Source: Escherichia coli | GTDB lineage: Bacteria; Pseudomonadota; Gammaproteobacteria; Enterobacterales; Enterobacteriaceae | Assembly (NCBI RefSeq): GCF_965641715.1 | Contig: NZ_OZ282458.1 | Direction: 5' to 3' (one strand) | DNA: 7,176 nucleotides | Part shown: positions 1,829 to 7,074 of the stretch, piece by piece | Numbering within the stretch: the stretch's first letter is position 1 | Layout: each line of letters begins with the position of its first letter | Translations under genes and position numbers: made by a program | Notes under the pieces: model-generated | Database searches by the model: none | Told to the model about the DNA's origin: nothing | Seen by the model: only the letters and a program-made list of their open reading frames with translations

Positions 1829-2079
1829 TCAGAGACAGGCTAAAATGTTGTCAGCGCGTTTCCGGTGCATTTTTTGGGATAATGGTTGGTTCGGGGGCAC
1901 CGGGAACGCGCTTCAGTCAGACCTTGCTGAAAACACAGGAACGCGTTAAAACGCATACGGGCGCGATTCTGGTGTGTCTTTTGTTGCTGTGTTTTGCCTC
2001 TATTGCCAGATCGCGCTCATTCCCCTGAACTTCTGTTTTCCCGCTCCGGTCCCCGTCTTCTTCGCTTCCGAAAGCATGA

Positions 2080-2275
2080 AAAAAATCCGTTTCAGCAGTC
2101 TCTGGCTGGCAATTCCTGCGTGATTCACATGGCTGCATAGCTATGCATGTGGTTAAAATTTACCGGGTGCGATCGCGGCAGTTTTTCGGGTGGTTTGTTG
2201 CCATTTTTACCTGTCTGCTGCCGTGATCGCACCGAACGCGTTTCTGCGGTGCGGGCAACGGATGTTATGGTAAAT
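2080..2275 (+). other. cer: cer-type multimer-resolution site: accessory (ArgR/PepA) sequences plus XerC/XerD core
   Basis: Bases 2133-2247 align almost base for base with my recollection of ColE1 cer (..tgcatagNtatNcatNNggttaaaattta..gcgatcgcggcagtttttcgggtggtttgttgccatttttacctgtctgctgccgtgatcgc..gaacgcgttt..). The ARG-box-like palindrome ctgcatagctatgcatgt at 2133-2150 lies about 115 bp upstream of the crossover core. The left boundary is approximate. In ColE1 this region also holds the Pcer/Rcd promoter, which I have not mapped here. Confidence 0.85.
2248..2275 (+). other. Xer crossover core: XerC arm GGTGCGGGCAA, 6-bp central region CGGATG, XerD arm TTATGGTAAAT
   Basis: The XerD arm is identical to the ColE1 cer arm. 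The XerC arm differs at 2 positions from GGTGCGTACAA. The central region is 6 bp, against 8 bp (TTAAGGGA) in ColE1 cer. Confidence 0.8.
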
Positions 2276-2300
2276 ACAATATGCAGCCAGTCTTAGAGAC

Positions 2301-2329
2301 GAAAAGTCCGCCCAGAAGACTGACTTTTC
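2301..2329 (-). terminator. Hairpin 4 nt downstream of the 68-aa gene stop; possible terminator of the small-gene operon
   Basis: gaaaagtc (2301-2308) pairs with gacttttc (2322-2329), giving an 8-bp perfect stem and a 13-nt loop. The U-run lies inside the 3' arm rather than trailing it. A competing 7-bp stem exists (2288-2294 with 2317-2323). Confidence 0.3.
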
Positions 2330-2332
2330 AGA

Positions 2333-2539
2333 TCAACCTTCAGCATCTAACTTGTCTATCGCTTTTTTATTGCGCCGATAGGTAGCCATTAGTTCACCAT
2401 CGCCTGATTGTAAGTCACGACCTGCTTGCTCAGCATAGGTATCGTTTACAGTCTTAGCGCCTTTTTTATAGGCCTTTTTAACATCATCAAATCCGGCTTG
2501 GATGACTTCTTTCGGCTTTTCTTGAGGTAATTTAGCCAT
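2333..2539 (-). CDS. Hypothetical small protein, 68 aa, Lys/Ala/Asp-rich, predicted helical, no recognisable family
   Basis: The ATG at 2539 overlaps the stop of the upstream 127-aa gene by 8 nt (ATGGCTAA), which indicates translational coupling. No signal peptide, TM segment or HTH is obvious. Confidence 0.55.
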   Translation of the reverse strand: MAKLPQEKPKEVIQAGFDDVKKAYKKGAKTVNDTYAEQAGRDLQSGDGELMATYRRNKKAIDKLDAEG

Positions 2540-2915
2540 GCTGTGAATCCTCTATAAGGTTGATTATTTTTCCAACAGATAAGACGGCATCTTCTGTGTC
2601 GCTGATTTTATGATTTATCCAACCGTCCTCTATCTTTAATTTGTTCACTACTCCTAATGTAAAAACAACCTTTTTTTCAGGAAAGAAAATTGCAAAGGTT
2701 CTACTTTTCTCTTTCCAATCAGAGGGCGGCGTCGAACGGAACGCTACATTCCTCGATTTAAGTATCGCTTTGATTTTACTAATTAATTCTTTTTTTTGTT
2801 TATTGCTGAGATTTTTGACGAACCCTTTGCTGAGATTGTCTGTGTAATCATCAAAAGAAATATCAACTGGTTTGTTTTTTTGTTTTTTATCAGATAGATG
2901 AACAATGTTTGACAC
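2532..2915 (-). CDS. Hypothetical protein, 127 aa, Lys-rich N-terminal half, no recognisable family
   Basis: The GTG start at 2915 has AGGA 6 nt upstream (complement of about 2922-2925). The gene is very AT-rich, yet its ORF is the only long one in the interval. It is followed by the overlapping 68-aa gene. Confidence 0.55.
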   Translation of the reverse strand: MSNIVHLSDKKQKNKPVDISFDDYTDNLSKGFVKNLSNKQKKELISKIKAILKSRNVAFRSTPPSDWKEKSRTFAIFFPEKKVVFTLGVVNKLKIEDGWINHKISDTEDAVLSVGKIINLIEDSQHG

Positions 2916-3054
2916 TGGATATCCTGCTTTTTGATGAATGAATACTCAGAAGAGTAGCGGAACTGTCTTGTTAGTCACAGAGGTAGAGTATCAATTCTAC
3001 GATAGATGGGTTCGAAGATCCGGCTGAGACCGTTCAGTACGCGGTCGAGATGTT

Positions 3055-3059
3055 ATGTT
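3055..3059. repeat. Left copy of the 5-bp target-site duplication ATGTT
   Basis: Identical pentamers directly abut both outer ends of the element (3055-3059 and 3269-3273). A 5-bp duplication is the Tn3-family hallmark. Confidence 0.85.
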
Positions 3060-3097
3060 GGGGTCTGAAGTCCAATGGAACGAAAACGTACGTTAGT
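3060..3097 (+). repeat. Left 38-bp terminal inverted repeat
   Basis: ggggtctgaagtccaatggaacgaaaacgtacgttagt matches about 33/38 against my recollection of the gamma-delta (Tn1000) IR GGGGTTTGAGGGCCAATGGAACGAAAACGTACGTTAAG. It matches about 30/38 against the Tn3 IR. Confidence 0.85.
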
Positions 3098-3140
3098 GAA
3101 GTAACTGTATGATATATCAAGACATAATAGACATAGAAAA

Positions 3141-3164
3141 ACGCCATCAAAACGGTGTCTTTTT
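3141..3164 (+). terminator. Weak terminator-like hairpin plus T-run inside the miniature element
   Basis: acgcc (3141-3145) pairs with ggtgt (3154-3158) including one G-U pair, followed by cttttt. On the minus strand the same stem has an A-C mismatch followed by ttttt. The stem is only 5 bp, so it is marginal on either strand. Confidence 0.25.
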
Positions 3165-3230
3165 AATCGAAAATTGGCACTTAACGGACGGCATTGTCTA
3201 CTAATCGATTTTTAAGACGATAATTTTCCT

Positions 3231-3268
3231 CTTACCGTACATTTTCGTACGGTTGGCCCTCAAACCCC
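3231..3268 (-). repeat. Right 38-bp terminal inverted repeat
   Basis: The reverse complement ggggtttgagggccaaccgtacgaaaatgtacggtaag matches about 33/38 against the recalled gamma-delta IR and 28/38 against the left IR of this element. Confidence 0.85.
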
Positions 3269-3273
3269 ATGTT
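3269..3273. repeat. Right copy of the 5-bp target-site duplication ATGTT
   Basis: See the left copy at 3055-3059. Confidence 0.85.
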
Positions 3274-3519
3274 CAATGTAATGACCGTCGAAATTGCCTT
3301 TACGGGCATGAAGCAACCAGGAGCAATCATTGGCAAAGGTAACTAGAGTTCAATGCATGGTAATCATTTTTGAGCTTGTGATGCATAGAGTTGGTTGCTG
3401 TTCCATTGCGTCTCAAACTCCGTCAAGATGCTCGCCGTAAAAGCGAGCATGTCTAGTATGCCTGTTCCGCTACTGATTTTTGATGGGCGAATTCAGGGCT
3501 GGCTAGCCACCAAGAAAAA

Positions 3520-4581
3520 TTACTTTATTTCATCAAACAGGTGAGATGCAGTATAATAAACGCTTTGATCAAAGCGTCTCTCTGGGCTTAATTTATTTTG
3601 CCCGCCATTTAAAATTATTTCTTTTAATACTGATGGTGGAAGGATGGGTTTTGTTCTTCTTGGGTGATCCATATAAGCTTTTGTTATTTTTCCGTTTAGC
3701 GAGAACTCTTTATCACTTTGATATCCAAAGTTCATCTCAGTATAAATTCTATTGATGTTTGTCTTGTTTTTGCTCGCAATTTCATACACCATTCTGGCGA
3801 GTCTGGCTGATGATCTCATTAGTCTGCTGGCAGATGAATTGTTATATGAGGATCTATCAATAAAGGTTCGACACAAAGCAAAATCACTCCAGATGAATAT
3901 GTCAAAGGCATTTTGATCTAATATTGGGCTCTTGCCTTTTGTTTTCCATAATGGTTGCATTAAAAAAGGTTTCTGGTAATCAAGAAAATTTTCTTGGAAA
4001 GTGTTTAGGCAATTTAATATATTTTCTTTCTTTGAAAGAACTTCAGTTTCATTCCCCCAGTGCTGTATGCTTTCGCATGTGGATTCAAATATTTTTCTTA
4101 TTTCATGGAATTTATCGCTGCAAGAGTGCATTATGCCAAGGGCACAATAAGAAGTGCTTGCAGGTCTTATTACAATCTCTGAACTCCATTCGCTCTCGTT
4201 TTCTTTATATGTCGTGCTATCTGGGAGTACGGTTAATTTTATTTCTAGTGCTTTTAAAAAACTATTGTTTCCTTTTATAACTAGATCTATTCCTTTTATG
4301 TCATCATAAGCATACTGTTGGTATGGTTCATATTTTTTCTCAAATTGAAATTCAAGATCACTATTTTTTAATGTTGTGTTAAAAACGAAGTCAAAAGATA
4401 CTTCTTTGGCATGCACTTTTAAATCCTTATCTAAATAAAGATAAATCGGATTCATTTTGTTGTCTCTCATATAACATGCTAGAGAGGTGGGAAAAGAACT
4501 GTTAAATTGGTTCTTTCCCCACAGATCGCTCTCTTTCCTGTTGGTGTTTTTTAAACCATAAAGAGATTCTATTTTGCTCAC
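3520..4581 (-). CDS. Candidate Type II restriction endonuclease, 353 aa, PD-(D/E)xK fold; specificity unknown
   Basis: It is divergent from, and 87 bp away from, a C5 methyltransferase gene. A candidate catalytic motif is GID(99)LV..x13..ALE(113)IK(115)LT. The GTG start at 4581 follows a strong SD AGGAG (complement of 4588-4592) with a 6-nt spacer. Base composition is AT-rich, as for the methylase. Confidence 0.7.
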   Translation of the reverse strand: MSKIESLYGLKNTNRKESDLWGKNQFNSSFPTSLACYMRDNKMNPIYLYLDKDLKVHAKEVSFDFVFNTTLKNSDLEFQFEKKYEPYQQYAYDDIKGIDLVIKGNNSFLKALEIKLTVLPDSTTYKENESEWSSEIVIRPASTSYCALGIMHSCSDKFHEIRKIFESTCESIQHWGNETEVLSKKENILNCLNTFQENFLDYQKPFLMQPLWKTKGKSPILDQNAFDIFIWSDFALCRTFIDRSSYNNSSASRLMRSSARLARMVYEIASKNKTNINRIYTEMNFGYQSDKEFSLNGKITKAYMDHPRRTKPILPPSVLKEIILNGGQNKLSPERRFDQSVYYTASHLFDEIK

Positions 4582-4592
4582 TTTTTGCTCCT

Positions 4593-4612
4593 GACGTCAA
4601 TTTATTGACGTC
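4593..4612. promoter_or_regulatory. Perfect palindromic operator candidate GACGTCAAT-tt-ATTGACGTC in the R/M divergent intergenic region
   Basis: It has 9-bp perfect inverted arms (4593-4601 and 4604-4612) with a 2-bp centre. It overlaps the -35 of the methylase promoter and abuts the endonuclease SD. It contains two GACGTC hexamers. Confidence 0.6.
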
Positions 4613-4633
4613 TATGGTGTGTTTCTATATCAT
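4605..4633 (+). promoter_or_regulatory. Sigma70-type promoter candidate for the methyltransferase gene
   Basis: -35 TTGACG (4605-4610, 5/6), a 17-bp spacer, then -10 TATCAT (4628-4633, 5/6). The predicted start is near 4640, about 29 nt before ATG 4669. Confidence 0.5.
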
Positions 4634-4646
4634 GATGTGGAGTGAT

Positions 4647-4675
4647 ATGATAATGAGTTTTTTATGTTATGAGAA
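4647..4675 (-). promoter_or_regulatory. Weaker sigma70-type promoter candidate for the endonuclease gene, facing the methylase promoter
   Basis: On the minus strand: -35 TTCTCA (complement of 4670-4675, 4/6), a 17-bp spacer, then -10 TATCAT (complement of 4647-4652, 5/6). The predicted start near 4640 would place the palindrome in the 5' leader of the R mRNA. Confidence 0.3.
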
Positions 4676-5826
4676 TAATTGATCTTTTTAGTGGGTGTGG
4701 GGGGTTATCCCTAGGCTTTTTGAAGGGGGGGTTTGATGTTGTAGGTGCTTATGATTTCTGGGATCCTGCTATTGAATGTTACAGAGATAATTTTAGCCAT
4801 CCGATAAAAAAACTAGATTTGAGCAATGTTGATGATGTGGTGAGGGAGCTTAAAGATATAGACTTCGATATGATTATTGGAGGGCCTCCTTGCCAAGACT
4901 TCAGTCATGCAGGTTTAAGAATTGAAGGTGCTAGAGCTAACTTAACTCGCTCATTTTCAGAAATTATAAAAAGAATAAAGCCAAAGTGGTTTGTGATGGA
5001 AAATGTAGATCGGGCATTAAGAAGTGGTGCCTATTTAGAAGCTCGAGGAATCTTTAAAGAATCAGGGTATGGGTTAACAGAAATTGTTTTGGATGCCAGT
5101 AAGTGTGGTGTTCCGCAAAAAAGAAAAAGATTATTTGTAATTGGAAAGCTTGACGTGAGGGATGGTTTTATCCTTAACGAAGTGATGTGCGGGATATCGA
5201 AAGATAGTATGACAGTTAGAAATTATCTTGGTGATTCATTGGGGATTGAGTATTATTACAGACATCCGAGAAATTATAACAGAAGGGCTATTTTCTCTAT
5301 TGATGAACCTGCGCCAACAGTAAGAGGGGTTAATAGACCGATACCTGATGGATATTTAGGGCATGCAGGCGATCCTGTCAGTATTTCTGAGAATGTAAGG
5401 CCATTAACAACCTTTGAAAGAGCAAGATTGCAAACATTTCCTGAAGACTTTAAATTTAAAGGTGCAAAAACAAATTTGGAGCAAATGATAGGTAATGCTG
5501 TTCCGGTTGAGTTAGCAAAATATGTTGCGGTGACAATCATGGAGTATGAAAAAAAACAAGTAAAAGGTATTTATGATAAAGAAGGCTTTAGGGCGTGGTT
5601 GCTGAATGAAAAGAAACTAACAAAAAGAACCTCTAGCGATATTATATCTAGATGTTGCAGAGGTGTTTCATTTTTTGATTCAGAGGGGGTGGATTTTTAT
5701 AACTGTGAAATAGATGAAATTATTATGAAACTGGAAAGGCTTGAATCGTTTGTCAGGCTTGGGGTTAGCCTGAAGTCTCAGTTAAGAAGGGCTTTTAAAT
5801 TATATTACGAATATTGTCGAAGGTAA
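4669..5826 (+). CDS. DNA (cytosine-5)-methyltransferase, 385 aa, Dcm family, with a C-terminal extension of about 95 aa
   Basis: All canonical motifs are present in order: I DLFSGCGG (aa 5-12), IV GGPPCQDFS (catalytic Cys74), VI ENV (111-113), VIII QKRKR (150-154), IX RPLTTFERARLQTFPEDF, X GNAVPV (275-280). The variable/target-recognition region is short (about aa 160-245). Residues from about 292 to 385 lie beyond motif X. Confidence 0.9.
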   Translation: MRIIDLFSGCGGLSLGFLKGGFDVVGAYDFWDPAIECYRDNFSHPIKKLDLSNVDDVVRELKDIDFDMIIGGPPCQDFSHAGLRIEGARANLTRSFSEIIKRIKPKWFVMENVDRALRSGAYLEARGIFKESGYGLTEIVLDASKCGVPQKRKRLFVIGKLDVRDGFILNEVMCGISKDSMTVRNYLGDSLGIEYYYRHPRNYNRRAIFSIDEPAPTVRGVNRPIPDGYLGHAGDPVSISENVRPLTTFERARLQTFPEDFKFKGAKTNLEQMIGNAVPVELAKYVAVTIMEYEKKQVKGIYDKEGFRAWLLNEKKLTKRTSSDIISRCCRGVSFFDSEGVDFYNCEIDEIIMKLERLESFVRLGVSLKSQLRRAFKLYYEYCRR

Positions 5827-5886
5827 TAAATACGAATTTATGTCTCTCAGGGGAGGGGGAGGGGATAAAAAGATCAAAGGATCCTC

Positions 5887-5915
5887 TTGTGATCCTTTTT
5901 TTCTGCGCGTAATCT
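5887..5915 (+). promoter_or_regulatory. RNAII (replication primer) promoter
   Basis: -35 TTGTGA (5887-5892), a 17-bp spacer, then -10 TAATCT (5910-5915). It is collinear with the pMB1/pBR322 promoter ttgagatcctttttttctgcgcgtaatct. Confidence 0.8.
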
Positions 5916-5926
5916 GCTGCCTGTAA

Positions 5927-6034
5927 ACAAAAAAACCACCGCTACCAACGGTGGTTTGTTTGCCGGAATCTAGAGCTACCAACTCTTTCTTCCGAAGGTA
6001 ACTGGCTTGGTGGAGCACAGATACCAAATACTGT
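5927..6034 (-). ncRNA. RNAI: RNAI antisense copy-number regulator (about 108 nt)
   Basis: The reverse complement reads acagtatttggtatctgtgctccaccaagccagttaccttcggaagaaagagttggtagctctagattccggcaaacaaaccaccgttggtagcggtggtttttttgt. It has a three-stem-loop architecture collinear with pMB1 RNAI. Confidence 0.85.
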
Positions 6035-6040
6035 CCTTCT

Positions 6041-6070
6041 AGTGTAGCCGCAGTTAGGCCACCACTTCAA
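6041..6070 (-). promoter_or_regulatory. RNAI promoter
   Basis: The minus strand reads ttgaagtggtggcctaactgcggctacact. The -35 TTGAAG is the complement of 6065-6070 and the -10 TACACT is the complement of 6041-6046. It differs at one base from the recalled pBR322 sequence. Confidence 0.75.
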
Positions 6071-6459
6071 GAACTCTTAATATCTCAATCCACCTTGTCC
6101 AGTTACCAGTGGCTGCTGCCAGTGGCGCTTTGTCGTGTCTTACCGGGTTGGACTCAAGACGATAGTTACCGGATAAGGCGCAGCGGTCGGGCTGAACGGG
6201 GGGTTCGTGCACACAGCCCAGCTTGGAGCGAACGACCTACACCGAACTGAGATACCAACAGCGTGAGCTATGAGAAAGCGCCACGCTTCCCGAAGGGAGA
6301 AAGGCGGACAGGTATCCGGTAAGCGGCAGGGTCGGAACAGGAGAGCGCACGAGGGAGCTTCCAGGGGGAAACGCCTGGTATCTTTAAGTCCTGTCGGGTT
6401 TCGCCACCTCTGACTTGAGCGTCGATTTTTGTGATGCTCGTCAGGGGGGCGGAGCCTAT

Positions 6460-6485
6460 GGAAAAACGCCAGCGGCGTGGCCTTC
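6460..6485 (+). other. oriV: oriV: RNA-to-DNA transition region of ColE1-type replication (approximate)
   Basis: ggaaaaacgccagcggcgtggcc corresponds to pBR322 GGAAAAACGCCAGCAACGCGGCC, where leading-strand synthesis starts. Confidence 0.6.
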
Positions 6486-6689
6486 TCTGGGTTCTTGTTT
6501 TTTGCTCACATGTTTCTTTTGGTGTTATCCCCTGATTCTGTGGATAACCGCATTACCGTCTTTGAGTGAGCTGATACCGCTCGCCGCAGCCGAACGACCG
6601 AGCGTAGCGAGTCAGTGAGCGAGGAAGCGGAAGAGCGTCGGAAGTTGCATTTTCTCCTTACACATCTGTGCGGCATTTCACACCCGGCA

Positions 6690-6780
6690 TGGCGCACTTT
6701 TCATACAATCTGCACTGATGCCGCATGGTTAAGCCAGTATACACTCCGCTATCGCTACGTGACTGGGTCAGGGCTTCGCC
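6690..6780 (-). other. oriT: bom/oriT region with predicted nic on the minus strand between 6734 and 6733 (..gtatactgg|cttaac..)
   Basis: ccgcatggttaagccagtatacactccgctatcgctacgtgactgggtca is collinear with the pBR322 bom region (..CCGCATAGTTAAGCCAGTATACACTCCGCTATCGCTACGTGACTGGGTCA..). The ColE1 nick is recalled as CTGG/CTTA next to GTATAC. Confidence 0.7.
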
Positions 6781-6882
6781 CCGACACCCGCAAGGTCAAC
6801 GGCCTGACGCGCCCTGACGGGCTTGTCTGCTCCCGGCATCCGCTCACAGACAAGCTGTGACCGTCTCCGGGAGCTGTATGTG

Positions 6883-7074
6883 TCAGAGGTTTTCACCGTC
6901 ATCCCCGAAGCGTGCGAGGCAGCTGCGGTAAAGCTCATCGGCGTGGTCGTGAAGCGATTCACAGATGTCTGCCTGTTCATCCGCGTCCAGTTCGTTGAGC
7001 TTTTCCAGCAGCGTTAATGTCTGGCTTCTGATAAAGCGCGCCATGTTAAGGGCTGTTTTTTCCTGTTTAGTCAC
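6883..7074 (-). CDS. rop: Rop/Rom, RNAI-RNAII kissing-complex stabiliser, 63 aa
   Basis: From GTG 7074 the product is MTKQEKTALNMARFIRSQTLTLLEKLNELDADEQADICESLHDHADELYRSCLARFGDDGENL, identical as far as I recall to pBR322 Rop. The 95-aa ORF-track version (to 7170) is an upstream in-frame extension. Confidence 0.9.
   Translation of the reverse strand: MTKQEKTALNMARFIRSQTLTLLEKLNELDADEQADICESLHDHADELYRSCLARFGDDGENL

What the first reader, a model, noticed from the sequence alone, without database searches (positions are those of the whole stretch)
3055..3273. IS101-like 209-bp Tn3-family miniature element with intact 5-bp target duplication
38-bp ends related to the gamma-delta/Tn3 inverted repeats bracket a 209-bp ORF-less element, and ATGTT is duplicated on both sides. 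This is a clean, probably recent transposition footprint. The element cannot move by itself. It needs a Tn3-family transposase of gamma-delta type supplied in trans, for example from Tn1000 on F-like plasmids. It therefore records co-residence with such an element and provides a route for cointegrate formation (conduction) in addition to Mob-dependent transfer. It splits the spacer between the endonuclease gene and the small-gene cassette and may be polar on read-through transcription.
Basis: partly seen in the sequence, partly recalled or inferred. Interest (0 to 1): 0.6.

Follow-up and report, generated by a model that had tools for sequence, protein, structure and literature searches.

The report
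IS101-type miniature transposon insertion
A 209-bp gene-less copy of the long-known miniature Tn3-family element IS101 has hopped into a small E. coli restriction-modification plasmid, leaving a textbook 5-bp footprint; it is real and cleanly documented but ordinary.

Summary
Window 3060-3268 is a 209-bp element (GGGG...CCCC) with 38-bp imperfect terminal inverted repeats. It is flanked by ATGTT on both sides. Sibling plasmids carry exactly the predicted empty site (...GAGATGTTATGTTCAATG...).

The element is 193/209 identical, without gaps, to IS101 of pSC101. Each end matches the Tn1000 (gamma-delta) inverted repeat at 33/38. Its interior is a 114-bp res site. The six resolvase half-sites have the same geometry as gamma-delta res (score 37/42 against 38/42 for gamma-delta itself; 0 of 2000 shuffles come near).

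It encodes nothing, so it must rely on a Tn1000-type transposase and resolvase supplied in trans, as published for IS101.

Identical copies sit in 37 other public plasmids, mostly ETEC IncF. There the copy abuts a Tn1000 remnant, which shows past co-residence. Only 2 of 12 insertion contexts I inspected keep a target duplication, so this copy is one of the clean ones.

The suggested polarity on neighbouring genes has no support. The only terminator-like hairpin is on the opposite strand.

Interest is low.

The parts
3055..3059 (.). Left copy of the 5-bp target-site duplication, ATGTT
   Evidence: Sequence. The empty site in L001, L003 and L027 has one ATGTT fewer.
3060..3268 (+). Whole 209-bp IS101-type TIME (non-autonomous Tn3-family miniature element), with IRL at the left as in the published IS101 orientation
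   Evidence: 193/209 identical, no gaps, to pSC101 2232-2024. That stretch equals the IS101 reference sequence in Table S2 of PMC13367494. The element is absent from sibling plasmids.
3060..3097 (+). IRL, 38 bp: GGGGTCTGAAGTCCAATGGAACGAAAACGTACGTTAGT
   Evidence: 33/38 to both Tn1000 inverted repeats of plasmid F, and 36/38 to the IS101 IRL.
3106..3133 (+). res subsite I (28 bp), TGTATGATA...TAATAGACA. This is the presumed crossover site; the central dinucleotide is AA.
   Evidence: Half-sites score 6/7 and 7/7 at the gamma-delta spacing. 5 of the 16 differences from pSC101 IS101 fall here.
3141..3168 (+). Weak terminator-like hairpin plus T-run between res subsites I and II, overlapping the first bases of subsite II (3156-3190). 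It is on the + strand only.
   Evidence: 5-pair stem, 3 GC pairs. Nothing was predicted on the - strand, where the flanking genes lie.
3156..3190 (+). res subsite II (35 bp; 34 bp in gamma-delta)
   Evidence: Half-sites TGTCTTTTT and CGTCCGTTA (reverse complement). The start lies 50 bp after the start of site I, as in gamma-delta.
3195..3219 (+). res subsite III (25 bp)
   Evidence: Half-sites TGTCTACTA and CGTCTTAAA (reverse complement). The start lies 39 bp after the start of site II, as in gamma-delta. TGTCTACTAATCGATTTTT matches gamma-delta res at 18/20.
3231..3268 (-). IRR, 38 bp. Read inward on the - strand: GGGGTTTGAGGGCCAACCGTACGAAAATGTACGGTAAG
   Evidence: 33/38 to the gamma-end IR of Tn1000, and 36/38 to the IS101 IRR.
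3269..3273 (.). Right copy of the 5-bp target-site duplication, ATGTT
   Evidence: Sequence; empty-site comparison.

Best explanation
Window 3060-3268 is a sequence variant of IS101, a Tn3-derived inverted-repeat miniature element (TIME).

Layout: the element consists only of cis-acting sites. These are two 38-bp ends of the Tn1000/gamma-delta type and, between them, a complete 114-bp three-subsite res site. An 8-bp linker and a 10-bp linker join them.

How it arrived (inferred): a Tn1000-type TnpA made by another element in the same cell bound the two ends. It carried out replicative transposition into the AT-rich target ATGTT of a ColE1-type, Mob+, HindVP restriction-modification plasmid, duplicating those 5 bp. 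The donor-target cointegrate was then resolved at the element's own res by a Tn3/Tn1000-type resolvase also supplied in trans, or by homologous recombination.

Present state: in the plasmid the element is inert cargo. It lies in the 604-bp spacer between the endonuclease gene (3520-4581, -) and two small unknown ORFs (2532-2915 and 2333-2539, -). Given a helper, it could fuse this plasmid to other replicons.

Shown here: the anatomy, the duplication, the empty site, the identity to IS101, the res geometry, and association of the identical variant with a Tn1000 remnant elsewhere.

Inferred from published work on IS101: which proteins act on it, and that this variant is still competent.
For: - Exact empty site in three sibling plasmids, with the alignment break at 3059/3269.
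- 193/209 ungapped identity to IS101 of pSC101. That sequence equals the published reference.
- Ends 33/38 to the Tn1000 inverted repeats, the same distance as the experimentally mobilised pSC101 IS101.
- Six resolvase half-sites at 47>, 66<, 97>, 123<, 136>, 152<. Subsites are 28/35/25 bp with start spacings of 50 and 39, against 28/34/25 bp and 50/39 in gamma-delta. Template score is 37/42 against 38/42 for gamma-delta. For 2000 dinucleotide shuffles the mean is 19.9 and the maximum 27.
- Homology to stand-alone res-like loci stops exactly at the outer half-sites.
- No ORF longer than 38 aa.
- 37 public plasmids carry a 100% identical copy and 431 carry at least 80% of it. This fits recent spread.
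- In ETEC pEB2 the identical copy abuts the last 443 bp of a Tn1000-like tnpA plus its IR, 95.3% identical to Tn1000.
- Literature: IS101 is trans-mobilised by Tn1000 transposase, and its res works, poorly, with Tn3 and Tn1000 resolvases (PMC4133298; PMC13367494).
Against: - No helper transposase is in the window.
- The 78-kb plasmid that co-resides with a 99.94% identical sibling plasmid (strain 2009C-3675) has no Tn3-family tnpA. The element may therefore be stranded at present.
- The variant differs from the tested IS101 at 16 positions. Two lie in each IR and five in res site I. One is C to A in the TGTC core of a half-site, and the presumed crossover dinucleotide changes from GA to AA. 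Competence is therefore not guaranteed.
- Sequence similarity of its res to gamma-delta res is low, about 15/28 in site I by my own count on the sequences printed. The argument rests on geometry.
- Ten of 12 insertion contexts inspected lack a target duplication. Simple insertion is therefore not the commonest fate of this family.
Confidence: 0.85

Rival explanations
1. The element is a dead relic. It arrived by transposition, but its variant ends or res are no longer recognised by any extant transposase or resolvase, so it is only a scar.
For: It has 16 substitutions relative to the tested IS101, including the IRs and site I. No helper is present on the sibling host's large plasmid. Tn1000-type tnpA at 80% length or more is present in only 170 of 5426 complete E. 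coli genomes, many of them laboratory strains.
Against: 37 plasmids carry 100% identical copies in several different flank contexts. The target duplication here is perfect. Distance to the gamma-delta IR (33/38) is no greater than for the functional IS101.
Confidence: 0.12
2. The 209 bp are ancestral to this plasmid family, and the 'empty' plasmids arose by precise deletion between the ATGTT repeats.
For: Short direct repeats can in principle mediate precise deletion. The target region carries tandem ATGTT copies.
Against: Empty-site plasmids are more numerous and more diverse: 17 records of 6715-6968 bp, 96.9-98.7% identical to the window. Filled ones are few and nearly identical in the cargo region. 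The same 209 bp occurs in unrelated plasmids. Tn3-family elements transpose replicatively and do not excise (established knowledge).
Confidence: 0.03
3. The element has been co-opted by the plasmid, either as a portable multimer-resolution site or as a transcriptional insulator or regulator between the endonuclease gene and the small ORFs.
For: It has a complete res architecture. Transcribed on the - strand it would fold into a -66.6 kcal/mol hairpin, z = -5.6. A weak terminator-like hairpin lies at 3141-3158.
Against: No resolvase gene is in the window. Most siblings do without the element. The terminator-like hairpin is on the + strand, while both flanking gene sets are on the - strand. No sigma-70-like promoter is predicted in 2850-3600. 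The stable fold is simply the terminal inverted repeats pairing.
Confidence: 0.05

Closest known systems
IS101 of pSC101 (also called TIME-IS101)
   Same: Length is 209 bp, with 193/209 ungapped identity. The layout is the same: IRL, 8 bp, 114-bp res, 10 bp, IRR, with identical half-site positions. It has no ORF.
   Different: There are 16 substitutions. Two lie in each IR and five in res site I. The strong and weak half-sites of site I are swapped (TGTATGATA/TGTCTATTA here, TGTCTGATA/TGTACATTA in pSC101). The central dinucleotide is AA here and GA in pSC101. Four lie in the II-III spacer. The copy here has an intact 5-bp duplication, whereas pSC101's own copy has none (GATAT/TTTGA).
Tn1000 (gamma-delta) of plasmid F, the presumed helper
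   Same: The ends match the Tn1000 inverted repeats at 33/38. The res has three subsites with the same sizes and spacings. The target duplication is 5 bp and AT-rich.
   Different: Tn1000 is 5981 bp and encodes TnpA and TnpR; this element encodes nothing. The res sequence is only weakly similar, and its crossover dinucleotide is not the AT of gamma-delta. The res sits a few bp from both ends instead of between tnpR and tnpA.
Other enterobacterial TIMEs (MITESen1 256 bp, TIME244 244 bp, IMU 288 bp)
   Same: All are short, gene-less, have GGGG...CCCC ends of the Tn3 family and make 5-bp duplications (PMC13367494). TIME244 also carries a putative res.
   Different: Their sequences are unrelated. 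MITESen1, TIME244 and IMU from Table S2 do not resemble the window element. TIME244 and IMU derive from the Tn21 subgroup, not the Tn3/Tn1000 subgroup.

Membership tests
[quoted passage not shown] | Terminal inverted repeats of about 38 bp of Tn3-family type, beginning GGGG | tested here: met
   Both ends are 33/38 to the Tn1000 inverted repeats and 36/38 to the IS101 inverted repeats. The arms are found as a 37-nt inverted repeat.
[quoted passage not shown] | Miniature size (50-500 bp) and no transposase gene | tested here: met
   The element is 209 bp and the longest overlapping ORF is 38 aa.
[quoted passage not shown] | 5-bp (rarely 6-bp) target-site duplication, with an empty site in relatives | tested here: met
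   ATGTT lies on both sides. The exact empty site is present in L001, L003 and L027.
IS101 specifically | Sequence identity to the pSC101 reference over the full length | tested here: met
   193/209 (92.3%) with no gaps. This is below the 95% cut-off used for the TIME-COMP screen in PMC13367494, so it is a variant rather than an isoform by that criterion.
IS101 specifically | Internal resolution (res) site | tested here: met
   The architecture test scores 37/42 against 38/42 for gamma-delta, and 0 of 2000 shuffles reach it. The subsite sizes and spacings agree. Whether the site functions with a resolvase cannot be tested here.
IS101 specifically | Trans-mobilisation (cointegrate formation) by Tn1000 transposase | not testable with these tools
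   This is reported only for the pSC101 copy (PMC4133298; PMC13367494). The indirect support is that the identical variant abuts a Tn1000 remnant in ETEC plasmids.
MITESen1 | Sequence identity to the 256-bp ISfinder entry | tested here: not met
   The MITESen1 sequence from Table S2 has a different length, different inverted repeats (GGGGTCAGTTTGGATATAG...) and a different interior.

The most novel reading that the evidence does not exclude
This variant, found in ETEC IncF plasmids and in this small plasmid, may form its own recombination-specificity group. Its presumed site I crossover dinucleotide is AA, against GA in pSC101 IS101 and AT in gamma-delta. The strong and weak half-sites of site I are swapped. 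It might therefore be served by a resolvase, and perhaps a parent transposon, other than Tn1000. It might also act mainly as a portable res hotspot that exchanges plasmid flanks, which would explain why 10 of 12 inspected contexts lack target duplications.
Probability: 0.12. Interest if true: 0.4.

Novelty: new member of a known kind. Interest (0 to 1): 0.15.

Why it matters
The practical value is modest.

- The finding documents a clean filled-site/empty-site pair for an IS101-type element on a small mobilisable restriction-modification plasmid.
- It shows that a 92%-identical IS101 sub-lineage is widespread but unannotated. 37 PLSDB plasmids carry identical copies. In RefSeq records the element lies under 'hypothetical protein' or 'Tn3 family transposase' calls, or under no annotation at all.
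- Surveys that use a 95% identity cut-off to the pSC101 reference would miss this sub-lineage.
- Such elements can fuse plasmids into cointegrates when a Tn1000-type helper is present. In pairs they can mobilise resistance genes (PMC13367494).

Nothing here changes what is known about how these elements work.

Tried and rejected
1. MITESen1, TIME244 and IMU as the identity. Rejected, because the sequences differ.
2. The 3.8-kb Tn3-family transposon in the 10,981-bp sibling plasmid as the helper. Its IR (GGGGTTCCGTGGGCATTTCTGCGATAACACACGCTAAG) shares only the GGGG and ...CTAAG motifs with the element's ends. It is an independent insertion in mbeA and is absent from the window.
3. Polarity or a terminator. 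The scan of 2850-3600 gave one weak hairpin on the + strand only and no promoter-like sites. The large RNA fold is just the inverted repeats pairing.
4. The GTDB species-representative scan with a 39-nt internal probe. It found only four pSC101-type copies, three of them with the pSC101 right junction (two of these also share the left flank of an Edwardsiella IncQ2 plasmid), so probably vector-derived or part of the same mobile segment. It found no copy of this variant.
5. A search for an autonomous parent with both IS101-like inverted repeats and IS101-like res. Partial hits were a Klebsiella ars transposon (IR only, 87%), orphan res-like sites in Y. pestis pMT and Klebsiella IncF plasmids with no adjacent resolvase gene, and a degenerate remnant in Enterobacter. 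No parent was identified.
6. Current co-residence with a helper. The large plasmid of the sibling's host has no Tn3-family tnpA by blastn or tblastn. The chromosome could not be checked.
7. Pfam on the two small downstream ORFs gave no hits.

Full report
**Observation**

The window reads ...gtcgagATGTTATGTT | GGGGTCTGAAGTCC...GGCCCTCAAACCCC | ATGTTcaatgtaatg.... The element occupies 3060-3268 (209 bp), flanked by ATGTT at 3055-3059 and at 3269-3273.

The repeat finder returns the ends as its longest inverted repeat: 37-nt arms, 78% complementary, 137 nt apart. Counted over 38 nt, the two ends agree at 28/38. No ORF longer than 38 aa touches the element.

**What the window is**

The window is a whole ColE1-type plasmid. 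Its features are:
- RNAI at 5927-6032 on the - strand
- an MbeA-type relaxase at 263-1828
- a HindVP-family endonuclease at 3520-4581 (-)
- a C5 cytosine methyltransferase at 4669-5826 (+)
- two small ORFs with no Pfam match, at 2532-2915 and 2333-2539 (-)

It is 99.94% identical to p2009C_3675-2 of E. coli O111:H8.

**Empty site**

PLSDB holds sibling plasmids of 6715-6968 bp that cover 93-97% of the window. In three that I fetched (NZ_AP025757, pEC34B NC_019078, CP063714) the site reads ...GGTCGAGATGTTATGTTCAATGTAATGACC.... This is exactly the sequence predicted by removing the 209 bp and one ATGTT.

BLAST of the window against NZ_AP025757 breaks at 3059/3269, with a 5-bp overlap in the subject. 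In the cargo region (2000-6000) the siblings differ from the window by 0-6 substitutions per 500 bp, mostly 0-2. Differences cluster in the ori/RNAI region and in mob.

The same filled site, identical over 411 bp spanning both junctions, is found in 4 of 5426 complete E. coli genomes. It is also in CP061256 and NZ_AP025744 in PLSDB. The insertion is therefore a single event inherited by a small plasmid lineage. It is recent relative to the family but not private to this cell.

**Identity**

The element aligns to pSC101 positions 2232-2024 at 193/209 with no gaps. That stretch is the IS101 reference sequence given in Table S2 of PMC13367494.

MITESen1, TIME244 and IMU from the same table are unrelated.

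Against Tn1000 of plasmid F (NC_002483 4191-10171), each end matches the inverted repeat at 33/38. That is the same distance as the pSC101 IS101 ends.

**Interior**

I used the gamma-delta tnpR-tnpA intergenic region as a control, with the resolvase half-site consensus TGTCYNNTA (from established knowledge). Gamma-delta gives half-sites that define subsites of 28, 34 and 25 bp, with start-to-start spacings of 50 and 39 bp.

The element gives half-sites at positions 47>, 66<, 97>, 123<, 136> and 152<. These define subsites of 28, 35 and 25 bp with the same 50 and 39 spacings. Together they span 114 bp, the published size of Tn3 res (PMC9943657).

Scored against the gamma-delta template:

| Sequence | Score |
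|---|---|
| This element | 37/42 |
| pSC101 IS101 | 37/42 |
| Gamma-delta | 38/42 |
| 2000 dinucleotide shuffles of the interior | mean 19.9, maximum 27 |

Stand-alone res-like loci in Yersinia pestis pMT and Klebsiella IncF plasmids are 76-80% similar. That similarity begins and ends at the outer half-sites. This independently marks the module's limits.

The element is thus IRL (38 bp), 8 bp, res (114 bp), 10 bp, IRR (38 bp). It holds nothing but cis sites.

**Mechanism**

The literature reports three things for IS101 (PMC4133298; PMC13367494; both citing Ishizaki & Ohtsubo 1985 and Fischhoff et al. 1980):
- It forms cointegrates.
- It is mobilised in trans by Tn1000 transposase.
- It contains a res that works, poorly, with Tn3 and Tn1000 resolvases.

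By homology, this copy was inserted by replicative transposition driven by a Tn1000-type TnpA from a co-resident element. The cointegrate was then resolved at its own res or by homologous recombination.

There is direct support for a past association. In ETEC plasmid pEB2, and in four further ETEC IncF plasmids I fetched that share the same right-flank sequence, a 100% identical copy abuts the last 443 bp of a Tn1000-like tnpA plus its IR. The fragment matches Pfam DDE_Tnp_Tn3 positions 286-389 and is 95.3% identical to Tn1000 positions 5548-5981.

**Caveats**

- No helper is in the window.
- The 78-kb plasmid that co-resides with the near-identical sibling has no Tn3-family tnpA.
- Tn1000-type tnpA at 80% length or more occurs in only 170 of 5426 E. 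coli genomes, many of them laboratory strains. The element is probably stranded at present.
- The 16 differences from pSC101 IS101 include two in each IR and five in site I. The presumed crossover dinucleotide changes from GA to AA. Competence of this variant is inferred, not shown.

**Other copies**

The 209 bp has 100% identical copies in 37 PLSDB plasmids, and 431 plasmids hold at least 80% of it.

I inspected 12 distinct flank contexts. Only two keep a 5-bp duplication: this lineage (ATGTT) and Vibrio mytili (TTAAC). pSC101's own copy has GATAT/TTTGA.

This fits secondary rearrangements at these elements, such as adjacent deletions, intramolecular transposition or exchange between copies. 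It makes the window copy one of the clean simple insertions.

**Claims not supported**

For polarity, both flanking gene sets are on the - strand. The only terminator-like hairpin (3141-3158 plus a T-run) is on the + strand and weak. No promoter-like site is predicted in 2850-3600. The -66.6 kcal/mol fold of the - strand transcript is the terminal repeats pairing. The small ORFs are intact in filled and empty plasmids.

**Comparison and verdict**

This is a member of the IS101/TIME family, and all sequence-testable defining features are met. At 92.3% identity it is a sequence variant. It falls below the 95% cut-off used in the 2026 TIME-COMP screen and is unannotated in public records.

It does not depart from the known kind in layout or in presumed mechanism. 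Interest is low.

Noticed in passing
window 3400-3421 (- strand): GGAGTTTGAGACGCAATGGAAC matches the outer 22 bp of the gamma-delta IR at 18/22 (26/38 overall). It lies 131 bp from the element, in the plasmid backbone of both filled and empty siblings. It may be a solo relic of an older Tn3-family end, but significance is marginal: 4 of 200 shuffles reach 17/22, and BLAST gives E = 0.17.
   Followed up: partly
L002 (NZ_CP148354.1) 5978-9760: A sibling plasmid of 10,981 bp carries the same IS101-type insertion. It also has a 3.8-kb Tn3-family transposon (tnpA plus resolvase) inserted in mbeA, with target duplication ATTAC. Its inverted repeats (GGGGTTCCGTGGGCATTTCTGCGATAACACACGCTAAG) are unrelated to the IS101 ends.
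   Followed up: partly
L013 (CP006000.1 pEB2) 2768-3420; also L010, L011, L012, L014: In ETEC IncF plasmids the 100% identical 209-bp copy directly abuts the last 443 bp of a Tn1000-like tnpA and its terminal IR (95.3% to Tn1000). It has no target duplication, and left flanks differ between plasmids. This looks like an insertion into Tn1000 followed by an adjacent deletion.
   Followed up: partly
L016 (Y. pestis pMT) 2501-2610; L019 (K. pneumoniae pGR-1870) 2501-2610: Stand-alone sequences are 76-80% similar to the element's res module and end exactly at its outer half-sites. They have no Tn3-type inverted repeats and no adjacent resolvase gene. They may be orphan res sites or stripped IS101-like relics on IncF-type plasmids.
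   Followed up: partly
L004 (pSC101) 2024-2232; L006, L007, L009, L023: pSC101's own IS101 has no target duplication (GATAT / TTTGA). The same right junction, TTTGAGCGTGGCAAG, appears in contigs assigned to Advenella, a Limnohabitans MAG, a Peptococcaceae MAG and an Edwardsiella IncQ2 plasmid. This suggests vector-derived contamination or spread of the same tet-linked segment.
   Followed up: no
window 6000-7000 and 1-1500: Substitutions between the window and its sibling plasmids cluster in the RNAI/ori region (30-49 per 500 bp in 6500-7000) and in mob. The restriction-modification cargo is almost invariant. This fits incompatibility-driven divergence or recombination of the replicon.
   Followed up: no
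window 2333-2915 (- strand): Two overlapping small ORFs (127 aa and 68 aa) downstream of the endonuclease gene have no Pfam match. They are conserved in all sibling plasmids and their function is unknown.
   Followed up: no
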